Part shown: positions 3,001 through 56,903 of the stretch, one piece after another | How the letters are laid out: the number at the start of each line of letters is the position of its first letter | Position numbering within the stretch: position 1 is the first letter of the stretch | The notes under the pieces: generated by a model | The model's database searches: none | What the model was told of the DNA's origin: nothing | The model's input: the letters and a program-made list of their open reading frames with translations, nothing else | DNA from: Naegleria gruberi | Lineage: Eukaryota | Assembly: GCA_000004985.1 (NCBI GenBank) | Contig: GG738845.1 | Reading direction: 5' to 3' (one strand) | Length of the DNA: 64,000 bases | Program-made: the position numbers and the translations under genes

Positions 3001-6000
3001 NNNNNNNNNNNNNNNNNNNNNNNNNNNNNNNNNNNNNNNNNNNNNNNNNNNNNNNNNNNNNNNNNNNNNNNNNNNNNNNNNNNNNNNNNNNNNNNNNNNN
3101 NNNNNNNNNNNNNNNNNNNNNNNNNNNNNNNNNNNNNNNNNNNNNNNNNNNNNNNNNNNNNNNNNNNNNNNNNNNNNNNNNNNNNNNNNNNNNNNNNNNN
3201 NNNNNNNNNNNNNNNNNNNNNNNNNNNNNNNNNNNNNNNNNNNNNNNNNNNNNNNNNNNNNNNNNNNNNNNNNNNNNNNNNNNNNNNNNNNNNNNNNNNN
3301 NNNNNNNNNNNNNNNNNNNNNNNNNNNNNNNNNNNNNNNNNNNNNNNNNNNNNNNNNNNNNNNNNNNNNNNNNNNNNNNNNNNNNNNNNNNNNNNNNNNN
3401 NNNNNNNNNNNNNNNNNNNNNNNNNNNNNNNNNNNNNNNNNNNNNNNNNNNNNNNNNNNNNNNNNNNNNNNNNNNNNNNNNNNNNNNNNNNNNNNNNNNN
3501 NNNNNNNNNNNNNNNNNNNNNNNNNNNNNNNNNNNNNNNNNNNNNNNNNNNNNNNNNNNNNNNNNNNNNNNNNNNNNNNNNNNNNNNNNNNNNNNNNNNN
3601 NNNNNNNNNNNNNNNNNNNNNNNNNNNNNNNNNNNNNNNNNNNNNNNNNNNNNNNNNNNNNNNNNNNNNNNNNNNNNNNNNNNNNNNNNNNNNNNNNNNN
3701 NNNNNNNNNNNNNNNNNNNNNNNNNNNNNNNNNNNNNNNNNNNNNNNNNNNNNNNNNNNNNNNNNNNNNNNNNNNNNNNNNNNNNNNNNNNNNNNNNNNN
3801 NNNNNNNNNNNNNNNNNNNNNNNNNNNNNNNNNNNNNNNNNNNNNNNNNNNNNNNNNNNNNNNNNNNNNNNNNNNNNNNNNNNNNNNNNNNNNNNNNNNN
3901 NNNNNNNNNNNNNNNNNNNNNNNNNNNNNNNNNNNNNNNNNNNNNNNNNNNNNNNNNNNNNNNNNNNNNNNNNNNNNNNNNNNNNNNNNNNNNNNNNNNN
4001 NNNNNNNNNNNNNNNNNNNNNNNNNNNNNNNNNNNNNNNNNNNNNNNNNNNNNNNNNNNNNNNNNNNNNNNNNNNNNNNNNNNNNNNNNNNNNNNNNNNN
4101 NNNNNNNNNNNNNNNNNNNNNNNNNNNNNNNNNNNNNNNNNNNNNNNNNNNNNNNNNNNNNNNNNNNNNNNNNNNNNNNNNNNNNNNNNNNNNNNNNNNN
4201 NNNNNNNNNNNNNNNNNNNNNNNNNNNNNNNNNNNNNNNNNNNNNNNNNNNNNNNNNNNNNNNNNNNNNNNNNNNNNNNNNNNNNNNNNNNNNNNNNNNN
4301 NNNNNNNNNNNNNNNNNNNNNNNNNNNNNNNNNNNNNNNNNNNNNNNNNNNNNNNNNNNNNNNNNNNNNNNNNNNNNNNNNNNNNNNNNNNNNNNNNNNN
4401 NNNNNNNNNNNNNNNNNNNNNNNNNNNNNNNNNNNNNNNNNNNNNNNNNNNNNNNNNNNNNNNNNNNNNNNNNNNNNNNNNNNNNNNNNNNNNNNNNNNN
4501 NNNNNNNNNNNNNNNNNNNNNNNNNNNNNNNNNNNNNNNNNNNNNNNNNNNNNNNNNNNNNNNNNNNNNNNNNNNNNNNNNNNNNNNNNNNNNNNNNNNN
4601 NNNNNNNNNNNNNNNNNNNNNNNNNNNNNNNNNNNNNNNNNNNNNNNNNNNNNNNNNNNNNNNNNNNNNNNNNNNNNNNNNNNNNNNNNNNNNNNNNNNN
4701 NNNNNNNNNNNNNNNNNNNNNNNNNNNNNNNNNNNNNNNNNNNNNNNNNNNNNNNNNNNNNNNNNNNNNNNNNNNNNNNNNNNNNNNNNNNNNNNNNNNN
4801 NNNNNNNNNNNNNNNNNNNNNNNNNNNNNNNNNNNNNNNNNNNNNNNNNNNNNNNNNNNNNNNNNNNNNNNNNNNNNNNNNNNNNNNNNNNNNNNNNNNN
4901 NNNNNNNNNNNNNNNNNNNNNNNNNNNNNNNNNNNNNNNNNNNNNNNNNNNNNNNNNNNNNNNNNNNNNNNNNNNNNNNNNNNNNNNNNNNNNNNNNNNN
5001 NNNNNNNNNNNNNNNNNNNNNNNNNNNNNNNNNNNNNNNNNNNNNNNNNNNNNNNNNNNNNNNNNNNNNNNNNNNNNNNNNNNNNNNNNNNNNNNNNNNN
5101 NNNNNNNNNNNNNNNNNNNNNNNNNNNNNNNNNNNNNNNNNNNNNNNNNNNNNNNNNNNNNNNNNNNNNNNNNNNNNNNNNNNNNNNNNNNNNNNNNNNN
5201 NNNNNNNNNNNNNNNNNNNNNNNNNNNNNNNNNNNNNNNNNNNNNNNNNNNNNNNNNNNNNNNNNNNNNNNNNNNNNNNNNNNNNNNNNNNNNNNNNNNN
5301 NNNNNNNNNNNNNNNNNNNNNNNNNNNNNNNNNNNNNNNNNNNNNNNNNNNNNNNNNNNNNNNNNNNNNNNNNNNNNNNNNNNNNNNNNNNNNNNNNNNN
5401 NNNNNNNNNNNNNNNNNNNNNNNNNNNNNNNNNNNNNNNNNNNNNNNNNNNNNNNNNNNNNNNNNNNNNNNNNNNNNNNNNNNNNNNNNNNNNNNNNNNN
5501 NNNNNNNNNNNNNNNNNNNNNNNNNNNNNNNNNNNNNNNNNNNNNNNNNNNNNNNNNNNNNNNNNNNNNNNNNNNNNNNNNNNNNNNNNNNNNNNNNNNN
5601 NNNNNNNNNNNNNNNNNNNNNNNNNNNNNNNNNNNNNNNNNNNNNNNNNNNNNNNNNNNNNNNNNNNNNNNNNNNNNNNNNNNNNNNNNNNNNNNNNNNN
5701 NNNNNNNNNNNNNNNNNNNNNNNNNNNNNNNNNNNNNNNNNNNNNNNNNNNNNNNNNNNNNNNNNNNNNNNNNNNNNNNNNNNNNNNNNNNNNNNNNNNN
5801 NNNNNNNNNNNNNNNNNNNNNNNNNNNNNNNNNNNNNNNNNNNNNNNNNNNNNNNNNNNNNNNNNNNNNNNNNNNNNNNNNNNNNNNNNNNNNNNNNNNN
5901 NNNNNNNNNNNNNNNNNNNNNNNNNNNNNNNNNNNNNNNNNNNNNNNNNNNNNNNNNNNNNNNNNNNNNNNNNNNNNNNNNNNNNNNNNNNNNNNNNNNN

Positions 6001-28104: not shown

Positions 28105-29022
28105 GAAAAAGAATTACTACAAGCAAAGATTGAGAATGACAATCTTATATCTCAAATCAATCAGAAAAACGAAAAGATTGAAGTTGTGCAATCAGAGGCT
28201 GCCCGCTTAAAGCAAAGTATGGATGACAAAACAAGAGTTTTAGTTCTTTTGATTCAAGAACTTTCAAATTTGACAAGTAATGGAGATTCTAAATTAACCA
28301 ATGTTCATTTGAAGAAGATTGTTTCAAGATACAATACAATTTTAACAAAAGGAATCAAGACAAACAATCAAGCAGAAAAGTTGAGAGATACAATAGAAGA
28401 ATTTGAAAGGCAAAGAGGATTTTTAGAACAAACCATAACAGGAATGAAAAGAACCCTATCGACAAGAGAAGAGCATCTAAAAAACGATCTTTTAAGAAAG
28501 AATAATGAAAATTCCATTTTAGTAGAAGAAATCAATCAATTAAGAAAAGATCAAAAGCAGTACAAACAAAGAATAATATCTTTAGAATACCAGCTCAAGA
28601 ATGCTCTTCATTTCCAACAGCAAGCACAAAGAGAATTGAACTCCTCGGCCTCCAATCCTGCATCGACTATATCTTCTGCGAGATCAAGACGAGTTGGAAG
28701 TGCCACATCTGCAAGTAGATCTTCCCTTAATAGAATACGAACTCCGGATGCATTCTTTGGAAATAGTGACATTACAGGTTTGGACAGACGAAAGGTTGCT
28801 GAATTTGTGGACTCTCTAGAAAAGAATAACAAACGATTCGAACAACAACAGCAGGATATTGACAAACTAAAGAACTATGTTCAAAACTTGTTGGAAGATG
28901 AGGGTTCGAAATCTCCTTCATCACAAAGTGACGATAATAACATTTCGTTTGGCGATTCTCCTCTTCTGGTTTCATCAGAAAAGCAAAAACCAAAATTGGC
29001 TCCGATTAAGATAAATAAATAA
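28105..29022 (+). CDS. 3' part of a coiled-coil protein gene, 5' end lost in the gap (K/E/Q-rich heptad-like sequence, S/R-rich segment, C-terminal acidic tail); stop TAA at 29020-29022
   Basis: The frame is open from the first sequenced base (28105) through ORF 28186..29022. The ORF-track start is a GTG. Composition is typical of coiled coil. No specific family recognised. Confidence 0.5.
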   Translation, partial: EKELLQAKIENDNLISQINQKNEKIEVVQSEAARLKQSMDDKTRVLVLLIQELSNLTSNGDSKLTNVHLKKIVSRYNTILTKGIKTNNQAEKLRDTIEEFERQRGFLEQTITGMKRTLSTREEHLKNDLLRKNNENSILVEEINQLRKDQKQYKQRIISLEYQLKNALHFQQQAQRELNSSASNPASTISSARSRRVGSATSASRSSLNRIRTPDAFFGNSDITGLDRRKVAEFVDSLEKNNKRFEQQQQDIDKLKNYVQNLLEDEGSKSPSSQSDDNNISFGDSPLLVSSEKQKPKLAPIKINK

Positions 29023-29509: not shown

Positions 29510-30343
29510 ATGTATTCAAATATGAAAATGGAAAATTATTTTGAACAAGTGTTAAAACAACAACACCTAGTTAACGATGATTTAATTGGCTTTTCTGAGT
29601 ACTTAGACCGATTACTAGAATTAAAAGATTCCTATGAACCGCCATCAATTAGGAAGGATATTGATCAATCACCACTTATGAATGTATTCGGTTTAAAACG
29701 TTCCACGGTGAAGCCTTCTTTTTTATTTTCTCATACTCCAGATATTAAACGACTTTCAGAATTTAAAAACTACTACGTTGAAAAAACATTCAACAGACAA
29801 CCTGCTTTCAAAGCTTCTTTTAGAAACAAGAACAGGGATATTAATAATGATCATTCATTTATTGAAAAGTTGGAATTGTTATTTGGCGAGAATGAAAAGT
29901 ATTTGGATAAATTGACTGATTTGAAAACTCTCTATCACATAAAGCAACTCATTTCAAAATATGAAAGGAAAAATCAATTACAAAGTAATGAGGATTTTAA
30001 TATTTATAATAGGAAGGACAATAGTTTCAATTCTTCTTCATTTTATCATCAACCAAACAAGTCACTCACTGAAGAGAGTTCAACTATTATTCATAGACTG
30101 ATTTTAACAAGTGAACTATTTTCGCCCTACGAATTTTCAAGTGATACTAACCAAAGTGCTGCTTTGAAATCATTTCAGATAGTTTTACATGGTAGCTCTA
30201 AAATATTGAAGAAGAGGCTATCCTCTCTACCAATGTATAATGATATTTATTCATCCCTCATTGAACAATGCGATAAAAGATTCTCAACACTGAGAAGGGA
30301 AATATTTCCTCAAGTAGGTTTTTTATTTTACAAATTGTTGTAA
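29510..30343 (+). CDS. Hypothetical protein, 277 aa as a stand-alone ORF; possibly the 5' exon of the downstream 1258-aa ORF (see findings)
   Basis: ORF with an A/T-rich leader. No recognisable domain. A GTAGGT donor at 30314 and a TAG acceptor at 30362-30364 would join it in frame to 30365..34177. Confidence 0.45.
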   Translation: MYSNMKMENYFEQVLKQQHLVNDDLIGFSEYLDRLLELKDSYEPPSIRKDIDQSPLMNVFGLKRSTVKPSFLFSHTPDIKRLSEFKNYYVEKTFNRQPAFKASFRNKNRDINNDHSFIEKLELLFGENEKYLDKLTDLKTLYHIKQLISKYERKNQLQSNEDFNIYNRKDNSFNSSSFYHQPNKSLTEESSTIIHRLILTSELFSPYEFSSDTNQSAALKSFQIVLHGSSKILKKRLSSLPMYNDIYSSLIEQCDKRFSTLRREIFPQVGFLFYKLL

Positions 30344-33400: not shown

Positions 33401-34177
33401 CAAAATATTTTTGAAAATTCTTTTGAAAACTCGTTTTTTGAAAAAATAATTGATTTCTCTTACATTTTGTCTTATGGAAAGGTGAAGATTTTAAACTTCA
33501 ATCATTATGATGAGTCTTTCAACTCTGTTTTCATAACCGAAGCTGAAGCATCATATATGAACGAGCATGACAGACCTTATTTCTATAAATCATCAGACAC
33601 TGCATGGGATATTCTGAATAAGGATTTCCCTTCTCATGCCATTTGTGAGAATTTTGAAAAACTAGAAACATTAGCATCTGAAGGTGTTGACAGCCGCATG
33701 ATATTTGGTGGCTTTTGTGGAGGAGATTGTGAATTGCTGCTTTTTCATCCTGATTGTGAAGAGTTAAAAAATGGGAACACTGAAATGAGCTATCTGAAAG
33801 AGGCACTTACAAATCGAAGAATGGAACATTTTGGAGAGATTACTTGTGGATGGATGAATTTTGATGACCTAGTTGGTCCTGGTATTGAAATGACAAATGC
33901 AAAATGTGGGAATATTACTAGAGAAAATATTTGGATTTCCAATGAATGTTGTACATTCAATTATAATCCAAACAAGACTCTTGAAGAGAACAACAAGGAA
34001 CGACAAGCTAAACAGAAAGCAAATAAGGGTTTAAAGTATGTCAATCACCCCAAAAGATTTAATCAACTTGAATGTGGACATCACCACTTAAGAGAAACAA
34101 TACCTCTCTATGATTTAAAATTCTTGTTTTATTCGGCAACACCCTTCAATTTCAAAGAGTTTTATGATAATAAATAA
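30401..34177 (+). CDS. Large uncharacterised protein (1258 aa from the ATG at 30401; about 1538 aa if fused to the upstream exon); C-terminal Cys/His-rich region; no confident family assignment
   Basis: 3.8 kb uninterrupted ORF ending in TAA (34175-34177). The upstream in-frame sequence is open back to 30365. The ATG at 30401 lacks the A-rich leader seen at other starts. Confidence 0.6.
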   Translation: MEQIEWLSTKYLPNIFRHRVDWENSLTKRSELIYKLLSYFSKQPDQTNKDWSSIICSQYPVMVKRNGQYMLIFGIRWKPFTNINNTIQSLREKGLYGLEFNTEHFNNFPYFFRDGKECIPTERPNVTSSTLLRDFKKQLKTQIIDRSGTNKYSFPKHPPFRHWVFDFFFNQSMLSKNDFLAVMEGRRSLLEIILKYRPDQVLENQIYQTLITQIEECLKSSRRGHSFKNTIGHSDLKSIQIPDSSKYLSLFLPFYFHIDDSEMLRVDHLFSINLEEYIRYFRRVLSELSDSNLSQVGILDIFEIRESIQENIMYNHKNHINNSLFNVVEISNPSKGHYIIDIIPNLIETIRSNVKFLRLDNLYWKLYSRGLYIPENPILHRDFILQSIKTFLHDLKNRQDKTARKFNTKQEDTNLLQDNLTLMSRFLNLKWKRPLAYVQVMTPSTRLVISKLVKTYFHPLHQVLQHEHGSPTIPSKLVNTIIPFQSRVSTFAIKLLEVTPSQNNNNQEDTLVDTVKTFIGKYKHDVHRCEKQLSNRLLFLFLTECAMRNIITTDNVLPKLALIFKKHVHDNDTCLLPCVDSIEREIISLKNFPNNLKKIEKCNLNTSHLHPLVISNTLMWRNDFTDISNLKALIWNSLKTTNYLINPIKVIIANFEKENTYIWNNMLEQSFDVLAIENIKHHVSSFFPIRSREEEEKEWSVHYKRLQKLGIDYLQYYPFKDLHAKALLSLSKKSLTTTKLEEKEDIIDMFFQPIDTLNSNSRLVLDNSINSLSLKKSTSSLYNRQFGFLYNDLSDMRKPNQFLDDWDLTLTIKCMSRRILRKLKQATQRREILGRMETTFNISSELSAEILEFSSFMIESMDKHSNKESKLLKKFKNITNGGSDKQKFSSLQELIEQVLEFCKKYEISRISHETITDSPEQILLPREQSSYCPATTVRNSINNNEIYSIVPFIERTLTRSKTKEIISNTLTRYEEDDLLFQNQMKMVEYSPFLHYFEKKIQNIFENSFENSFFEKIIDFSYILSYGKVKILNFNHYDESFNSVFITEAEASYMNEHDRPYFYKSSDTAWDILNKDFPSHAICENFEKLETLASEGVDSRMIFGGFCGGDCELLLFHPDCEELKNGNTEMSYLKEALTNRRMEHFGEITCGWMNFDDLVGPGIEMTNAKCGNITRENIWISNECCTFNYNPNKTLEENNKERQAKQKANKGLKYVNHPKRFNQLECGHHHLRETIPLYDLKFLFYSATPFNFKEFYDNK

Positions 34178-34179
34178 AT

Positions 34180-36232
34180 TTAGAAAGTGTAATTGTTTGG
34201 ACAATCCAAAGCCCAAGGGAATTTGTCTTGCAAAGTTTTTGAGAAGAGTTTGGCTACTGGTACGTCAGTTCTCTTGCACCATGCAATTGTAATTCTAGGA
34301 TCACAATAGTTTGTTCTTGATGTTGTAAGAGAAACTGTCTTGTTTTCAATTTTCATCTTTTTTTCTTGTTTGAGATCATCAATCTTCTTCTTAATGGCCT
34401 CAATCTTGGAGGAAATAGATTCAGGGGTTTTTGGTAAAAGTGGTTGTGTTGGCTTTTTAGGTGGCTTGCTCTTCTTTGCAGAACCCAAATATGCAGCAAC
34501 AGATTTTCCTGCTTTTTTGGCTTTTTCAGCTAATTCTTTTTCTTGTTGCTTGTGTTCTTCCAACTTTTGTTCATATTCTTTCATTAATTTTTCATTTTCC
34601 TTATCCCATTTTTCTTTTACGTCTTCATATCCTTTCTTTTTAACTTCCTTTAATGCTTGTTGGAGTCTTTCCAAGTAGGTTTCTTGATCTTCAATTTTCT
34701 TTTCCATAGTTTCGACTGAAGTATCAAATGTCTTTGGTGCTGCACGTTGATGGTTACAGAGAATAGCAACTTGTCTGTTGGCAGAGTTGAAAATGCTTAC
34801 TTTCTCAGCAACACTCATGTCACTAGTAATTTCTCTTTCCAACTTTTTCAATTCTCTATCCAATGTAATAGATGCATTATAGGTACGGAAAACCTTGGCA
34901 GATAATTTTTCCATATAGGACTTGAGGTGATCATTGAGTTTGGATGGATTAATCTTGTGGAAGAGCATGTCAGATTTTTTCTTTCCTTCAATAAATCCCT
35001 TTACACATTTGTAAACCTCCTTCTCAACTTCTACAGTATTTTCATATCTGATTGAGTCTTTACCAAGGAAATCAAATTTGATAGATGAAGGAGCAACCAA
35101 GCTCACATGTTCAACTCTTAAACTGCAACAACCAACTGTGTCTGCCTCTTCTTCATCATCTTTTTCATTACCGACTCTCAAAGCAAGCTTATCTATAAAG
35201 TAGATGGCAACTCCCAATTGTCTATCACTTTCTTGCTTCTCCGTCCATTGTTGTTTGTAATCTTCTCTTATCTTTTCTATGCAATCCTTCAAGCTTCTTG
35301 CAGTTTGATATTTCAGATAATCATTCATTGCCTTCATACTTGATCCACTGGCAAATTGTACATACTTGTTCTTATTGTTGATTGCATCTTTAAAAGCAGC
35401 AACCCACAATACTGTATTGTTGGATACAACACCACCCCATTTATGTCCTGTTGGTGGAGGCGGAACATCTTCCAATCTTCCAATATTAATTGTGATATCT
35501 TCAGGTTGAATTCTCTTTTTCAACATACCCATTTTAGGATGGGTACCTCTACCTCTAAATAATCCAGGAGGTTCAATCTTGAACTGTTGAACCTTTTCCT
35601 TCCGTCCATCAACAAGAGCATACTTGTATGCGTCCTCAAACTTTGCTTTTAATTCCTTTTCCGCCTTCTTTTCTTCTGAAGTTCTGTTTAATTTGGTCTC
35701 CTTTTCTGTCAATAAATGTTCCCAAATTTTAGAAAAATCACACTTGGCAAGAGATTTGATTGTGTGATTTTTCCCGAGAAGTTCCTTCCAAGCAGCCCAA
35801 AAATTTTCATTAAATTGTTTCTTCTGTATGTAATCCGATTCCAACATGGAGGCGTACATTGTTGCTACTTCCTCTTGTTCTGGGTCAAGCTTTACAGGTT
35901 TTCCATCATAATAAACAGGAATGCTATGAGGTTGATAATCTGGTGGGAATAATACACCATTATGCTTGAGTGTTTGCCACTTTTGATCAGAGTTTAAAAT
36001 TGACTGGATAGTATCATCCGATTGTGCCCACCATTTGTAAACTCCATCATCTGGTTTAGTGTCCATTTCATCCTTAGATTCTTCCTTCTTTACTTTCTTT
36101 GTGTCTTTTTTAACTATTACTACCTTTTCTTCCTCCTCACTCTCACTATCATCATCCAAAATTCTTTTTCTTTTCTAAAGTTTTGTTGAACAATAAAAAC
36201 GCAACCCGCAAAAAAAAACTTACGTCGACCAT
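34180..36232 (-). CDS. TOP1: DNA topoisomerase I (eukaryotic type IB), 667 aa: complement(join(34180..36174,36224..36232)); 9-nt first exon ATGGTCGAC plus a 49-nt intron (GTAAGT..TTTAG)
   Basis: Core and catalytic regions are conserved (LFRGRGTHPKMG, SLRVEHV, NYCDPRITIAWCKR, C-terminal ..KFPWALD..F then TAA). The ORF-track start is a TTG. In-frame upstream sequence hits TAG unless the upstream micro-exon is spliced in, which gives MVDKRKRILDDDSESEEE.. Confidence 0.88.
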
Positions 36233-38570: not shown

Positions 38571-41500
38571 ATGAGTAAAATGCTTGCAAAGATTCAAAAA
38601 TTGAAGAAGAGTAGAGCCACTTCTTCAACCAAACAAAACAAACATGAGGAAGAAGAGTATGATAAATCATTTTTCGGATATATGGATGATTCATCATCGG
38701 ATGATGACAATTTTGATCCATCAATTTATGGAGGAAGAGAAGTAGTTGGAAGTTTTGTTGAGAAGGATGGTAGTGATGATGAATTATCGGGACATGTGCA
38801 ATTTTCAACTAACAGTGATGACGATGATGAATATAATCTTACTGTTGGTGACCTTCAAAATGAAGAGGAACAACCAAAGAAGAAAAAGAAGACTACACCT
38901 GTGGTTTCAACACAAAAACCACAACAGGTTATAGAAGAACATAATGATGATAACGATCTGGAAATGAATGATGCAACCGATGACACTCACGAAACCAATG
39001 AAGACCATCAAGAAGAAACCTCAACAACTGCCAAAAAATCAAGTAATCTTGATGAATGGACAGAAGAGGAATTGAAAGAAAACGATTCTACCTCTTCCAC
39101 ATGGAAGAAGATTAAATTATCTGATGAGGATGCCTTTTCATGTGAAGGAATGTACTCTCTTGAAGTATTAGATGAAGATAATGAGGAATACAAGTCAATA
39201 ATGCGAAGTCTTTATGGTGATGACTATGACAAGAAAGATGAAAAGAAGGAAAATCCAACCAGTATTGAAAAAGATACCAGAACAAAGGAGGAAATCAAAA
39301 AGGAACGAAACAAGAAGAAAAGAGAAAGAAAGGCTAAAAAGGCAGAGGAAAAAAAGCTTGCTGAAAATACCACCCAAGAATTACAAACCAAAGTATCTCA
39401 AGAAGAAAAAATTGAAAAGGTAAAAAAGGAAAATGAAACAAAGAAATTAGAGAAGAAAAAACTTGAAACAACAGAACAAAAATTGGTCAAGAATGAACAA
39501 GAAAACAAAGTGCAAGAAGAAACTAAAAAAAAGAGAGAAAAAGCTGGTGATTTGAAAGTTGTAAATGAAAATGCAGATACTGCTCCATTTGAAGAAGTAG
39601 CTTCTAAAATGACTGCTTGGAATTTCAATGATACCATTCAATTACATGAACAAGTTGTTCGTAATTTGTATCGCCTTGGATTTTACAAGCCAACACCAAT
39701 CCAAGAAGAATCAATTCCTAAAGCTATTGGTCAACAAGCTGATATTTTAGCTGCTGCTGAAACTGGTTCAGGAAAGACATTGGCATTTGTTTTACCAATT
39801 ATTGATGAGTTGATGAAATTGAAAGAAAATGAACCTGCTCAACAAGTCAAAGATGATGAATCTAGAACTGTAGATGGAATTTCACTCAATGAAATTGGTG
39901 TTAAAAATAAGAGAAAGAAACTTTTACGCGATGTTAAAAAGGACATGTTCCAACTCAGATCACTTATTCTTTTACCTACAAGAGAATTAGCATTGCAAGT
40001 TTGTTCACATATTGAAGCTGTCATTCGAAACACATCCCTAAAGGTTGTTGGACTAGTTGGTGGACTAAATGAAGAGAAGCAAATCAGAGAAATTCACGTA
40101 CAAAAACCTGATATTATTGTTGCTACACCTGGTAGATACTGGTTTTATATTGATAAGGGTATGTTTGCCTCCAACTCAATTCTTGGCCTCAGATTTTTGG
40201 TGATTGACGAAGCTGATAGAATGGTAGCTGATGCTCACTTTTTCGAACTCCAATCCATTTTGAGATATATTACCATTGAAAGATTCAAAAGAAGTCAACA
40301 AGGAGAATCAAACTCAATCTTGAGAAAATTCATCTCTTCTGCAACTCTTACTTTTATTGATGATAAGTGGAAGAAGCAATTATATGAATTATCACTCCAA
40401 GAACAAGAAAAGAGAGAATCCAATTCAGAAGATTATATCAACCAAAAAGAAGAAGAACAGGTTGAAATACCTCAAGAACAAGATGCTGAGCATAAGAAGA
40501 AAGAAAAAGAAACTAAAACACAAAAGATTATCCAAAAAATTCTTGCCATTTTAGATATGAAAAATCCAGTGATGGTTGACTTGACTACCAGCAATTTATT
40601 AGCCCACACTCTCCAAGAAGCCTTCATACAAAGTACCAGAGAAGATAAGGTTCTCTATCTTTACTATTTCTTGACAATTTATTCTGGTCGTACAGTAGTC
40701 TTTACAAATAATATTAAGGTTGTTAGATTTATTGGTAATATTTTGAAAGAGCTCTTTAATAAGGGACCTAATGCCAAGCAAACAAGTATTACAATTGTTT
40801 CATTACATGGTAAGATGGACCAACAATCTCGTTTTAAGAATTTGGAAAAGTTTAAAAAGGCTGAAAATAGTATCTTGATTACTACCGACGTATTTGCTCG
40901 TGGTATTGATATTCCTGATGTAGAAAATGTTGTACATTTCAATATTCCAATTGATACCAAGACTTATATCCATCGTTGCGGACGTTCTGGAAGAGCAGGC
41001 AAACAAGGATTTAGTTTGGCTATTGTTTCTCCGGAGGAACGTAAATCATTCTATCATATTCTAAGAGATACTCGAGGTGAAGGTAGTGAAATGCCTCCTT
41101 TCCCGATGTCACATCCTGATTTGTTAGAAGTTTTACGTAAGCGTGTAAATTTGGCAATTGAAATTGAAAAATTGGAAGAAAGAAAGGCTGCCAGAACTCA
41201 AGAACAAGATTGGTTTACAAAACAAGCCGCTGCTATGGATATTGATTTAGATGAACGATTTTTCAAGGACTTGAAGAAAGATAAGGATTTGAAACTCAAA
41301 GGATTAGCTCCTGATCAAGAACGTAAGCTTGCAACTATGAAGAAACAACTTGAAGGCTTACTCAAACAAAATGTTTTCATGCAAACAAAGACAAGTATTT
41401 CAGGAACTAATCGTCTATTTACTGTTGGTGATCCAAGAAGTGTTGATCTTATCAGAGCTAGTCTTAGTGGATTGAGAGAAAACAAAGCAAGAGCTGATTT

Positions 41501-41582
41501 AGAAGAAGCCCAAAAGCCTTCCGAAGTTCCAACTAAAAGTCAATCGAAAAAAAGAAAGAGAAATCAAAAAAAGAATAAATAA
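38571..41582 (+). CDS. DEAD-box ATP-dependent RNA helicase, 1003 aa, acidic/Lys-rich N- and C-terminal extensions; long insertion between motifs I and Ia resembles DDX24/Mak5
   Basis: Motifs AAETGSGKT, PTRELA, VIDEADRM, SAT, ARGIDIP, HRCGRSGRAG. Intronless. A-rich leader aaaaaaaaATG. TAA stop at 41580-41582. Confidence 0.85.
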   Translation: MSKMLAKIQKLKKSRATSSTKQNKHEEEEYDKSFFGYMDDSSSDDDNFDPSIYGGREVVGSFVEKDGSDDELSGHVQFSTNSDDDDEYNLTVGDLQNEEEQPKKKKKTTPVVSTQKPQQVIEEHNDDNDLEMNDATDDTHETNEDHQEETSTTAKKSSNLDEWTEEELKENDSTSSTWKKIKLSDEDAFSCEGMYSLEVLDEDNEEYKSIMRSLYGDDYDKKDEKKENPTSIEKDTRTKEEIKKERNKKKRERKAKKAEEKKLAENTTQELQTKVSQEEKIEKVKKENETKKLEKKKLETTEQKLVKNEQENKVQEETKKKREKAGDLKVVNENADTAPFEEVASKMTAWNFNDTIQLHEQVVRNLYRLGFYKPTPIQEESIPKAIGQQADILAAAETGSGKTLAFVLPIIDELMKLKENEPAQQVKDDESRTVDGISLNEIGVKNKRKKLLRDVKKDMFQLRSLILLPTRELALQVCSHIEAVIRNTSLKVVGLVGGLNEEKQIREIHVQKPDIIVATPGRYWFYIDKGMFASNSILGLRFLVIDEADRMVADAHFFELQSILRYITIERFKRSQQGESNSILRKFISSATLTFIDDKWKKQLYELSLQEQEKRESNSEDYINQKEEEQVEIPQEQDAEHKKKEKETKTQKIIQKILAILDMKNPVMVDLTTSNLLAHTLQEAFIQSTREDKVLYLYYFLTIYSGRTVVFTNNIKVVRFIGNILKELFNKGPNAKQTSITIVSLHGKMDQQSRFKNLEKFKKAENSILITTDVFARGIDIPDVENVVHFNIPIDTKTYIHRCGRSGRAGKQGFSLAIVSPEERKSFYHILRDTRGEGSEMPPFPMSHPDLLEVLRKRVNLAIEIEKLEERKAARTQEQDWFTKQAAAMDIDLDERFFKDLKKDKDLKLKGLAPDQERKLATMKKQLEGLLKQNVFMQTKTSISGTNRLFTVGDPRSVDLIRASLSGLRENKARADLEEAQKPSEVPTKSQSKKRKRNQKKNK

Positions 41583-41583
41583 T

Positions 41584-41865
41584 TTAAATTTGTTTTGAAA
41601 TATAGTACACTATTTGACAATTGTAATCAATTATTTAAATATTCATCTACCTACCATTATTTCCTCTAATAAAAGCGTCTCCGTATGTTCCAGTCTGCAC
41701 TCCATCAACATATTCCTTTGTTTGTTCCAAAGCAACATTCATATATCCATCTAGACAGGTTAAAACTCCTCTATATTCAGCACCAGAATTTAATTTAACA
41801 ATCACTGGTTTTCCGACAATATCATTTTTTAAAAAGGTTGTTGGGTCCAAATTGTTTGCTGACAT
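41584..41865 (-). CDS. LSM6: Sm-like protein LSm6, 78 aa: complement(join(41584..41609,41655..41865)); 45-nt intron GTAGGT..AATAG
   Basis: ..GKPVIVKLNSGAEYRGVLTCLDGYMNVALEQTKEYVDG..YGDAFIRGNN then the spliced V YYISKQI. This matches the LSm6 pattern (DYRGVLACLDGYMNIALEQTEEYVNGQLKNKYGDAFIRGNNVLYIS). The unspliced frame ends GNNGR* on a GTAGGT donor. Confidence 0.8.
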
Positions 41866-41929
41866 TTTTTTTGTTGATAAAATTATTTTTAAACTTTCAA
41901 TTTTTTAATTTTTTTAATATTTACAAGTT

Positions 41930-56600: not shown

Positions 56601-56903
56601 ACAATGCATAAGAAACAAACAGTCTATATCCATCCATCCTCTTGTCTATTCACTGGAAATGATAAGGATAAGGTTGTAACAATTATTGGTGATCCAAAGT
56701 TGGCAGCAAAAGAACAAAAAGATCCACCAAAATGGGTTGTCTTCTTTGAGCTAGTTCTCACTACCCAAGAATTTATGAGACAAGTTATTGAGATTGAACC
56801 AACTTGGTTGCTAGAGATTGCTCCTCACTTATATAATGGTAAAATTACTGTTAAGGAGCATAAGATGCCAAAAACTCTTGGAAAATCAAGTCGTAATAAA
56901 TAA
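53685..56903 (+). CDS. DHX16: Pre-mRNA-splicing factor ATP-dependent RNA helicase DHX16/PRP2 (DEAH box), about 1072 aa, intronless
   Basis: [12 protein letters not shown].. at the N-terminus. [29 protein letters not shown] matches human DHX16 [60 protein letters not shown]. The C-terminus ..[27 protein letters not shown].. is conserved. The real ATG at 53685 follows aaaaa, and the track start is a TTG. Confidence 0.88.
   Translation: [1072 protein letters not shown]

What the first reader, a model, noticed from the sequence alone, without database searches (positions are those of the whole stretch)
41580..41660. Convergent genes with stop codons 1 nt apart; the LSm6 intron and terminal exon sit in the DEAD-box helicase 3' flank
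The DEAD-box helicase stop occupies 41580-41582 and the LSm6 stop occupies 41584-41586 on the opposite strand. The 26-nt LSm6 terminal exon and its 45-nt intron (41610-41654) therefore lie in the helicase's immediate 3' flank. The two mRNAs must overlap antisense in their 3' UTRs, or use extremely short UTRs. This raises the question of how polyadenylation signals are placed.
Basis: partly seen in the sequence, partly recalled or inferred. Interest (0 to 1): 0.6.

Follow-up and report, generated by a model that had tools for sequence, protein, structure and literature searches.

The report
Abutting convergent genes in Naegleria gruberi
In the compact genome of the amoeba Naegleria gruberi, a DDX24/MAK5-type RNA helicase gene and the small LSm6 gene run head-on into each other with stop codons one base apart, so their mRNA tails must overlap; this is real, but ordinary for this genome and largely explained by its known ultrashort 3' ends.

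Summary
The window is Naegleria gruberi nuclear DNA. The helicase (DDX24/MAK5/RH13-type, 38571-41582 +) stops at 41580-82. LSm6 (- strand) has exon 1 at 41865-41655, a 45-nt GT..AG intron at 41654-41610 and a 26-nt exon 2 at 41609-41584, with its stop at 41586-84.

The intron is strongly supported. Five heterolobosean orthologues have an intron at the same codon position, followed by a micro-exon encoding VYYI[S/A]K. The RNA-seq-guided N. fowleri RefSeq model is spliced exactly this way. Both public N. gruberi models are wrong at the 3' end: LSm6 is unspliced (72 aa) and the helicase is partial (460 aa).

The poly(A) question has a mostly published answer. N. gruberi uses AAUAAA 15-20 nt upstream of cleavage, with a median 3'UTR of 39 nt. 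Here AATAAA (41574-79) forms the helicase's last two codons, which predicts cleavage inside LSm6 exon 2. LSm6 has no canonical hexamer for about 825 nt.

Tight convergence is the local norm (stop-to-stop gaps of 1, 2, 30 and 31 nt). Sense AATAAA is purged from coding sequence (5 seen, about 63 expected), and 4 of those 5 sit exactly at -6 from a stop.

No RNA data were available here, so the transcript ends are inferred. Interest is low to moderate.

The parts
38571..41582 (+). DEAD-box RNA helicase CDS (DDX24/MAK5/RH13-type), 1003 codons plus stop, with no intron needed
   Evidence: Single ORF. Pfam DEAD and Helicase_C domains. Nearest named relatives are DDX24/MAK5, RH13 and MAK5. The C-terminal 108 aa beyond the deposited partial model P0124 align with N. 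fowleri, Acrasis and P0125.
41574..41579 (+). AATAAA hexamer forming the helicase's last two codons (Asn-Lys); inferred to be the helicase poly(A) signal
   Evidence: It is one of only 5 sense-strand AATAAA in 31.8 kb of coding sequence (about 63 expected), and 4 of those 5 lie exactly at -6 from a stop. In-frame AAT-AAA occurs at 5 of 10,499 dicodon positions, and 4 of these are terminal (P=3e-10). AAUAAA is the N. gruberi poly(A) signal (PMC11529991).
41580..41582 (+). Helicase stop codon TAA
41589..41597 (+). TTTGTTTTG, a candidate U/GU-rich downstream element and the predicted cleavage zone (about 41589-41600) for the helicase mRNA. It is antisense to the LSm6 codons Ser-Lys-Gln.
   Evidence: Sequence. 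The position is inferred from the published 15-20 nt signal-to-cleavage distance and the published U-rich downstream element. Not shown by RNA data.
41584..41586 (-). LSm6 stop codon TAA
41584..41609 (-). LSm6 terminal exon (26 nt): completes the Val codon, then YYISKQI and the stop
   Evidence: The same micro-exon is present in four other heterolobosean loci. Pairwise codon differences are 27 synonymous versus 6 non-synonymous. It restores Pfam LSM profile positions 61-65, raising the score from 61.7 to 69.8 bits.
41610..41654 (-). LSm6 spliceosomal intron, 45 nt, GTAGGT...AG, phase 1
   Evidence: The position is conserved with introns of 37, 180, 132 and 38 nt in the relatives. Introns of similar size with GTAAGT, GTAGGT or GTATGT donors occur elsewhere in the window.
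41655..41865 (-). LSm6 exon 1 (ATG at 41865-41863)
   Evidence: It is 100% identical to XP_002683465.1 / NAEGRDRAFT_28961 up to GNN.
41606..41609 (-). UGUA at the start of LSm6 exon 2, a candidate upstream auxiliary element for LSm6 3' processing
   Evidence: UGUA is the published upstream element in N. gruberi. A role here is inferred.
41545..41583 (-). U-rich tract (65-75% U) immediately downstream of the LSm6 stop, antisense to the helicase's Lys-rich tail. Candidate downstream element and region of the LSm6 poly(A) site.
   Evidence: No AATAAA or ATTAAA occurs on this strand until 40760 and 40733. The only near-variants are AACAAA at 41594-41589 and TTTAAA at 41588-41583.

Best explanation
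This is a fully abutting convergent gene pair in the gene-dense nuclear genome of Naegleria gruberi. The DDX24/MAK5-type helicase ends at 41582. The two-exon LSm6 gene ends at 41584 on the other strand.

Shown by sequence and comparison: both stops are the true protein ends, and LSm6 needs the 45-nt intron to encode the last beta-strand of its Sm fold.

Inferred: the helicase mRNA is cleaved about 15-20 nt after the AAUAAA that forms its last two codons (Asn-Lys). That gives a 3'UTR of roughly 7-20 nt ending inside LSm6 exon 2. LSm6 has no canonical hexamer. It is most likely cleaved within about 5-40 nt of its stop, using a weak variant (AACAAA or UUUAAA) with the upstream UGUA and the long U-tract that is the antisense of the helicase's Lys-rich tail.

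The two mature mRNAs would therefore be complementary over a few tens of nucleotides, each UTR lying antisense to the other's coding sequence. I read the overlap as a by-product of genome compaction that very short 3'UTRs and a coding-embedded poly(A) signal make tolerable, not as a dedicated regulatory device.
For: - Organism and genes.
- Exact coordinates and splice product.
- Intron: the same position in 5 taxa, with intron length varying from 37 to 180 nt while the micro-exon protein is conserved. Codon differences are 27 synonymous versus 6 non-synonymous.
- My de novo spliced N. fowleri protein equals RefSeq XP_044564920.1, which came from an RNA-seq-guided BRAKER1 annotation.
- The Pfam LSM match is completed by exon 2.
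- Helicase C-terminus conserved.
- Published N. gruberi direct-RNA data: AAUAAA is the top signal, 15-20 nt upstream of cleavage; median 3'UTR is 39 nt, and 22 nt for stop-overlapping signals; UGUA upstream and U-rich downstream elements.
- AATAAA at 41574-79. Sense AATAAA occurs 5 times against about 63 expected in coding sequence, 4 of the 5 at -6 from a stop; P=3e-10.
- Three of those four genes are the + strand members of the convergent pairs with gaps of 2, 1 and 31 nt.
- The pairing is syntenic in N. fowleri (124-nt spacer) and N. lovaniensis (72-nt spacer).
- No ncRNA, tRNA or stable structure at the junction.
Against: - No transcript data for N. gruberi were accessible. The spliced 78-aa protein is absent from the 15-billion-protein collection, and the poly(A) paper's supplements are not held. 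The splice junction and both cleavage sites are therefore inferences.
- LSm6 lacks any AAUAAA or AUUAAA for about 825 nt, so its 3' end is uncertain.
- The published study placed coding-sequence AAUAAA in its negative set. Use of a hexamer that lies wholly inside the CDS is thus not directly documented.
- None of 23 long open frames in the N. fowleri, N. lovaniensis, Naegleria sp. and Willaertia loci ends AAT-AAA-stop. The embedded-signal pattern may be specific to N. gruberi or to this region.
- A regulatory role for the overlap cannot be excluded.
Confidence: 0.75

Rival explanations
1. LSm6 is unspliced, as in the deposited model (72 aa, ...GNNGR*, stop at 41649-41647). The real stop-to-stop gap would then be 64 nt, and the 'terminal exon' would be a chance ORF fragment.
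For: The public N. gruberi record NAEGRDRAFT_28961 / XP_002683465.1 is this model. No N. gruberi transcript evidence is available.
Against: - All four read-through models in relatives diverge into unrelated sequence right after GNN.
- Every locus has GT..AG followed by a VYYI[S/A]K micro-exon, under purifying selection.
- Eukaryotic LSm6 proteins in general continue GNNV[LFY]YIS.
- The N. fowleri and N. lovaniensis RefSeq models are spliced.
- The unspliced protein loses the last strand of the LSM domain.
Confidence: 0.03
2. LSm6 transcripts ignore the junction region and read through about 825-850 nt antisense to the helicase coding sequence, to the first canonical hexamers (ATTAAA at 40760, AATAAA at 40733). 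This would produce a long natural antisense transcript to the helicase.
For: - No AAUAAA or AUUAAA lies on the - strand between 41794 and 40760.
- In N. gruberi the identity of the hexamer is reported as the main determinant of site choice.
Against: - The published median 3'UTR is 39 nt.
- UGUA and a 40-nt U-rich tract flank the LSm6 stop in the expected positions.
- N. lovaniensis LSm6 also lacks a canonical hexamer in its spacer, so non-canonical use seems normal for this gene.
- An 850-nt UTR on a 237-nt coding sequence would be extreme for this genome.
Confidence: 0.15
3. The overlap is a selected regulatory device. The complementary 3' ends form an mRNA duplex, or cause transcriptional interference or siRNA production, which couples expression of LSm6 (RNA decay and splicing) and the ribosome-biogenesis helicase.
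For: - The convergent pairing is conserved across three Naegleria species.
- In N. fowleri and N. lovaniensis the first canonical helicase-sense AATAAA lies antisense to LSm6 exon 2, so some overlap may be ancestral.
- In yeast, overlapping convergent 3' ends can mediate interference and duplex formation (abstracts of PMC3900390 and PMC6993858).
Against: - Spacer length is not conserved (1, 72 and 124 nt).
- Willaertia has a different neighbour.
- Four of five convergent pairs in the window are equally tight, with unrelated gene functions. That points to genome-wide compaction.
- There is no special RNA structure.
Confidence: 0.1

Closest known systems
'Dual-use' stop codon / poly(A) signals and ultrashort 3'UTRs in protists (Giardia, Spironucleus, N. 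gruberi; PMC11529991)
   Same: Same organism and the same AAUAAA signal. The signal is merged with the end of the reading frame, which predicts a UTR of about 10-20 nt. The same logic of genome compaction applies.
   Different: Here the hexamer (41574-79) abuts the stop but does not overlap it: it is the last two sense codons, Asn-Lys. The paper's search window (-2 to +5 around the stop) would not count it, and coding-sequence AAUAAA formed that study's negative set.
Convergent gene pairs with overlapping 3'UTRs in Saccharomyces cerevisiae (PMC3900390, PMC6993858)
   Same: Tail-to-tail genes whose mature mRNAs are complementary at their 3' ends. Short intergenic distance is the determinant.
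   Different: Yeast pairs keep an intergenic spacer, and the overlap is UTR against UTR. Here the spacer is 1 nt, and each UTR must lie over the partner's coding sequence, over its intron too in the helicase's case. Functional consequences are demonstrated in yeast and untested here.
LSm6 (U6 snRNA-associated Sm-like protein) genes of other eukaryotes
   Same: Sm fold with the ...FIRGNNV[LFY]YIS ending; 66-78% identity to named LSm6 proteins of animals and fungi.
   Different: In Heterolobosea the last 7-8 codons sit on a 23-26-nt micro-exon behind a short phase-1 intron. Several automatic annotations missed this (N. gruberi, one N. fowleri record and W. magna among named genomes; also an unnamed JGI metagenome contig).
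Overlapping transcription in microsporidia and nucleomorphs (from my own knowledge, not checked here)
   Same: Extreme gene packing, with transcripts that run into neighbouring genes.
   Different: Those genomes are reduced parasite or endosymbiont genomes. N. gruberi is a free-living amoeba with a gene-rich genome, and the packing here coexists with normal introns and long low-complexity protein tails.

Membership tests
LSm6 / Sm-like protein family (Pfam LSM, PF01423) | Significant match to the LSM domain over its full length, including the Sm2 motif strand (RGNN-V-x-Y-I) | tested here: met
   The spliced protein scores 69.8 bits over profile positions 5-65 of 66. The unspliced protein reaches only position 60, at 61.7 bits.
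LSm6 / Sm-like protein family (Pfam LSM, PF01423) | Orthology to LSm6 rather than another LSm/Sm paralogue | tested here: met
   All named top hits are LSm6, at 66-78% identity. No phylogeny was built.
DDX24 / MAK5 / RH13 DEAD-box helicases | DEAD and Helicase_C core domains | tested here: met
   Pfam E=1e-30 and 7e-24.
DDX24 / MAK5 / RH13 DEAD-box helicases | Closest named relatives belong to this subfamily, including the conserved C-terminal extension | tested here: met
   The C-terminal query hits proteins named DDX24/MAK5, RH13 (Acrasis) and MAK5. The alignment extends to the basic tail. PDB hits are generic DEAD-box proteins. No reciprocal search or tree was made.
Spliceosomal GT-AG intron | GT...AG boundaries whose removal restores a conserved reading frame | tested here: met
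Spliceosomal GT-AG intron | Positional conservation in orthologues, with divergent intron sequence and conserved flanking exons | tested here: met
   Five taxa, introns of 37-180 nt.
Spliceosomal GT-AG intron | Spliced junction observed in RNA | not testable with these tools
   No N. gruberi transcript is in the collections. There is only indirect support, from the RNA-seq-guided N. fowleri model.
Dual-use stop codon / poly(A) signal (as defined in PMC11529991) | The poly(A) hexamer overlaps the stop codon by at least one base | tested here: not met
   The hexamer is at 41574-41579 and the stop at 41580-41582. They are adjacent and do not overlap. The arrangement works like a dual-use signal but is not one by that definition.
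Dual-use stop codon / poly(A) signal (as defined in PMC11529991) | Resulting 3'UTR of about 20 nt or less | not testable with these tools
   This needs 3'-end reads.
Convergent gene pair with overlapping mRNA 3' ends | Stop-to-stop distance shorter than the combined 3'UTR lengths | tested here: met
   The gap is 1 nt, against a published median UTR of 39 nt and a 15-20 nt signal-to-cleavage distance. The overlap follows by geometry.
Convergent gene pair with overlapping mRNA 3' ends | Both overlapping transcripts observed | not testable with these tools
   No strand-specific RNA data were accessible.

The most novel reading that the evidence does not exclude
N. gruberi may have a distinct, so far uncounted class of poly(A) signals lying wholly inside the coding sequence, as terminal Asn-Lys codons (AAU-AAA-stop). 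The published survey scored coding-sequence AAUAAA as negatives. Such signals would let convergent genes abut with 1-2 nt between their stops.

In these pairs the 3'-processing elements of one gene would be encoded by the other gene's coding sequence. The helicase's U/GU-rich downstream element is the antisense of the LSm6 Ser-Lys-Gln codons. The U-rich element of LSm6 is the antisense of the helicase's Lys-rich tail. This could impose reciprocal constraints on both proteins' C-termini.
Probability: 0.35. Interest if true: 0.45.

Novelty: new member of a known kind. Interest (0 to 1): 0.25.

Why it matters
There are three practical points.

1. Both public N. gruberi gene models at this locus are wrong at the 3' end. 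LSm6 lacks its last strand, and the helicase is a partial model 108 aa short. The same LSm6 micro-exon is missed in an N. fowleri record, in W. magna and in an unnamed JGI metagenome contig. This affects orthology and spliceosome or decay-complex inventories for Heterolobosea.

2. The locus illustrates how far tail-to-tail packing can go in a free-living eukaryote, and how a coding-embedded AAUAAA could permit it.

3. The near-total purge of sense AAUAAA from coding sequence, except at -6 from stops, could refine the published poly(A)-site model for N. gruberi, where such sites were treated as negatives.

None of this overturns current understanding.

Tried and rejected
- Exact-protein look-ups of the helicase and GMP-reductase ORFs found no contig. 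The helicase ORF is absent because the deposited model is partial.
- I looked for transcript-derived evidence of the spliced N. gruberi LSm6. The exact 78-aa protein is not in the collection.
- The supplements of the poly(A) paper, which should list per-gene 3'UTRs, are not held.
- Literature searches for Naegleria convergent or overlapping transcripts, and for intron or intergenic statistics, gave nothing usable ([syntax error], 32, 33, 35, 46).
- A structured RNA, tRNA or terminator-like hairpin at the junction was tested and rejected: no Rfam hit, no tRNA, and fold z-scores of +1.2 and +1.0.
- The AAT-AAA-stop ending is not a general heterolobosean habit in the available data: 0 of 23 long open frames in the N. 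fowleri, N. lovaniensis, Naegleria sp. and Willaertia loci. The sample is small.
- Before identifying the organism I considered a microsporidian, diplomonad or nucleomorph origin. The 100% match to N. gruberi proteins rules these out.
- The apparent 18.7% G+C of the window is an artefact of 28,103 leading Ns. The real sequence is about 33% G+C.

Full report
**What the window is.** Positions 1-28103 are Ns. The remaining 36 kb is about 33% G+C and densely packed with eukaryotic genes. The unspliced ORF at 41647..41865(-) is 100% identical to 'predicted protein [Naegleria gruberi]' (NAEGRDRAFT_28961, XP_002683465.1, 72 aa). The adjacent 346-aa ORF is exactly N. gruberi XP_002683466.1, a GMP reductase/IMPDH-family protein. 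The window is therefore N. gruberi nuclear DNA.

**Checking the observation.** The + strand reads ...AAG AAT AAA TAA, with the stop at 41580-41582. Position 41583 is a single T. 41584-41586 is TTA, which is TAA on the - strand. On the - strand, 41654->41610 is a 45-nt GTAGGT...AATAG interval and 41609->41584 is a 26-nt exon. Joining 41655 to 41609 converts ...FIRGNNGR* into ...FIRGNNVYYISKQI*.

**Is the LSm6 intron real?** Several independent lines say yes.
- The deposited models of N. gruberi, an unnamed Naegleria (JGI metagenome), one N. fowleri record and Willaertia magna all diverge into unrelated residues immediately after GNN. LSm6 proteins from animals, fungi and other protists continue GNNV[LFY]YIS.
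- In each of those loci, and in N. lovaniensis, a GT...AG interval of 37, 180, 132 or 38 nt starts at exactly that codon position. A 23-26-nt exon encoding VYYI[S/A]K... plus a stop follows it.
- The introns are unalignable and differ in length, whereas the micro-exon shows 27 synonymous against 6 non-synonymous pairwise codon differences, the latter all Ser/Ala.
- The spliced N. fowleri protein I derived from the DNA is identical to RefSeq XP_044564920.1. That model came from a BRAKER1 annotation guided by RNA-seq (PMC6831594). The N. lovaniensis RefSeq model is spliced the same way.
- Exon 2 restores the last strand of the LSM domain: Pfam profile positions 5-65 at 69.8 bits, against 5-60 at 61.7 bits.
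- Introns of 37-51 nt with GTAAGT, GTAGGT or GTATGT donors are the likely connectors of several other ORFs in the window, so the size and donor are typical.

**Is the helicase stop real?** The 1003-codon ORF has DEAD and Helicase_C domains. Its closest named relatives are DDX24/MAK5, Acrasis kona RH13 and fungal MAK5. The deposited N. gruberi model (P0124) is a 'partial' 460-aa protein that stops at window nt 41255, 108 codons short of the ORF end. Those 108 residues align with N. fowleri and with the Acrasis and JGI proteins. These end right after the same basic cluster: SKKRKRNQKKNK* here, PKKKRRKTK* and PKRKRRRRSNKK* there. The stop at 41580-82 is therefore the genuine C-terminus, and the two coding sequences really are separated by one nucleotide.

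**How unusual is this?** It is not unusual for this genome. The five convergent pairs in the window have stop-to-stop gaps of 2, 1, 30, 31 and 634 nt. In the 2-nt pair, the - strand member is topoisomerase I, whose C-terminal domain matches Pfam end to end. The LSm6/helicase pairing itself is syntenic in N. fowleri and N. lovaniensis but with longer spacers. The N. fowleri spacer is 124 nt. The N. lovaniensis spacer is 72 nt once an apparent frameshift in the deposited helicase model is allowed for. Willaertia has a different neighbour.

**How are the poly(A) signals placed?** Direct RNA sequencing of N. gruberi has been published (PMC11529991):
- AAUAAA is the top signal, typically 15-20 nt upstream of cleavage.
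- The median 3'UTR is 39 nt.
- In 11-13% of genes AAUAAA overlaps the stop codon ('dual-use'), with a median UTR of 22 nt.
- UGUA upstream and U-rich sequence downstream act as auxiliary elements.

In the window, AATAAA occupies 41574-41579, the helicase's last two codons. This is not chance:
- In 31.8 kb of coding sequence, sense-strand AATAAA occurs 5 times against about 63 expected from base composition. The antisense TTTATT occurs 41 times against about 26 expected.
- Four of the five sit exactly at -6 from a stop.
- In-frame AAT-AAA is found at 5 of 10,499 dicodon positions, four of them terminal (binomial P=3e-10).
- Three of those four genes are the + strand members of the convergent pairs with gaps of 2, 1 and 31 nt.

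I infer that the helicase mRNA is cleaved at about 41589-41600, within the U/GU-rich TTTGTTTTG. That gives a UTR of roughly 7-20 nt lying entirely antisense to LSm6 exon 2. Strictly, this is not the published 'dual-use' class. The hexamer abuts the stop without overlapping it, the paper's search window was -2 to +5, and coding-sequence AAUAAA formed its negative set.

**LSm6 is the less clear partner.** There is no AAUAAA or AUUAAA on its strand from 41794 down to 40760 and 40733, about 825-850 nt past its stop. Near the stop there are only AACAAA (41594-89) and UUUAAA (41588-83), a UGUA at the first bases of exon 2 (41609-06), and a 40-nt tract of 65-75% U (41583-41545) that is the antisense of the helicase's Lys-rich tail. 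N. fowleri and Willaertia have AATAAA about 32 nt after the LSm6 stop. N. lovaniensis has none in its spacer. I consider proximal, non-canonical cleavage most likely, and long read-through a minority rival. Either way, any LSm6 UTR longer than 1 nt is antisense to the helicase stop, its poly(A) signal and its last codons.

**A further detail from the relatives.** In N. fowleri and N. lovaniensis the first canonical helicase-sense AATAAA is the antisense of the GTT TAT codons at the start of LSm6 exon 2. Some helicase-UTR/LSm6-exon-2 overlap may therefore predate the collapse of the spacer in N. gruberi.

**Nothing else occupies the junction.** There is no Rfam family, no tRNA and no RNA structure beyond shuffled controls.

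**Verdict.** The observation and the gene-structure interpretation are correct, and they improve on the public annotation. The mRNA overlap follows from the geometry, but no RNA data here show it. The phenomenon belongs to a known kind: compact protist genomes with ultrashort 3'UTRs and signals merged with the reading frame. It is routine in this window. The modestly new element is the coding-embedded Asn-Lys-stop AAUAAA class, and the way each gene's processing elements are written in the other's coding sequence.

Noticed in passing
window 1-28103: The first 28,103 positions are Ns (a scaffold gap). The raw 18.7% G+C of the window is an artefact, and the real sequence is about 33% G+C.
   Followed up: yes
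window 29017-29022, 34172-34177, 41574-41579, 56898-56903 (all + strand): Four genes end AAT AAA TAA. Sense AATAAA is otherwise almost absent from 31.8 kb of coding sequence (5 seen, about 63 expected; the antisense TTTATT occurs 41 times). This suggests a class of poly(A) signals embedded as terminal Asn-Lys codons, which the published N. gruberi survey would have scored as coding-sequence negatives.
   Followed up: partly
window 34170-34185: A second abutting convergent pair. A 1258-codon ORF, probably joined to 29510..30313 by a 51-nt GTAGGT intron, ends at 34177 with AATAAATAAA. Topoisomerase I (- strand) ends at 34180, a 2-nt gap. Its first AATAAA is 49 nt downstream, antisense to the partner's coding sequence.
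   Followed up: partly
window 41866-41929 (- strand): Only 64 nt separate the GMP-reductase stop (41930-32) from the LSm6 ATG (41865). This spacer holds two ATTAAA hexamers for the upstream gene. The LSm6 promoter and 5'UTR must therefore overlap the upstream gene's 3' end, or LSm6 may depend on read-through transcription.
   Followed up: no
window 38571-41582 versus P0124: The deposited N. gruberi helicase protein is a 'partial' 460-aa model. It starts at ORF residue 366, ends at residue 895 (nt 41255), and is not an exact substring of the ORF, so it also contains a spurious internal intron. The acidic and Lys-rich N-terminal 365 residues and the last 108 residues are unannotated.
   Followed up: partly
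L007 (N. lovaniensis PYSW02000006.1), about 5650-5690: The deposited helicase model ends early (…GDPEVLI*) because of an apparent 1-nt frameshift. The homologous reading frame continues in another frame to …GDMEDDE* at 5451-5453. This is either an assembly error or a real lesion.
   Followed up: partly
L006 (Willaertia magna JBEGDK010000059.1) 5367-5442: A tRNA-Val(TAC) gene lies 91 nt downstream of the true LSm6 stop (5275). The deposited 104-aa W. magna LSm6 model mis-splices and runs into this tRNA gene.
   Followed up: yes
L001 / L002 (ENA ERZ929261, Logan ERR1078381): A run labelled as a metagenome contains a 3.8-kb contig 99.5% identical to this window (9 mismatches, 5 gaps). The printed stretch covering the LSm6/helicase junction reads the same as the window. 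This is a second N. gruberi isolate or allele.
   Followed up: partly
window 44226, 45176, 52250 (-), 37161, 49933: Several ORF 'stops' are really the TAA inside a GTAAGT splice donor (or lie next to a GTATGT donor). Six-frame ORF ends therefore over-count gene ends here. The likely introns are 37-80 nt.
   Followed up: partly
P0001 (ENA, 123 aa): The top-scoring hit for LSm6 is a 123-aa protein from a 577-nt contig in which an LSm6 segment (NSGVDYRGILNCLDGYMNIALEQT.EYVNGQLKKKY.DAFI) is repeated. This is probably a misassembly or a tandem duplication in an unidentified eukaryote.
   Followed up: no
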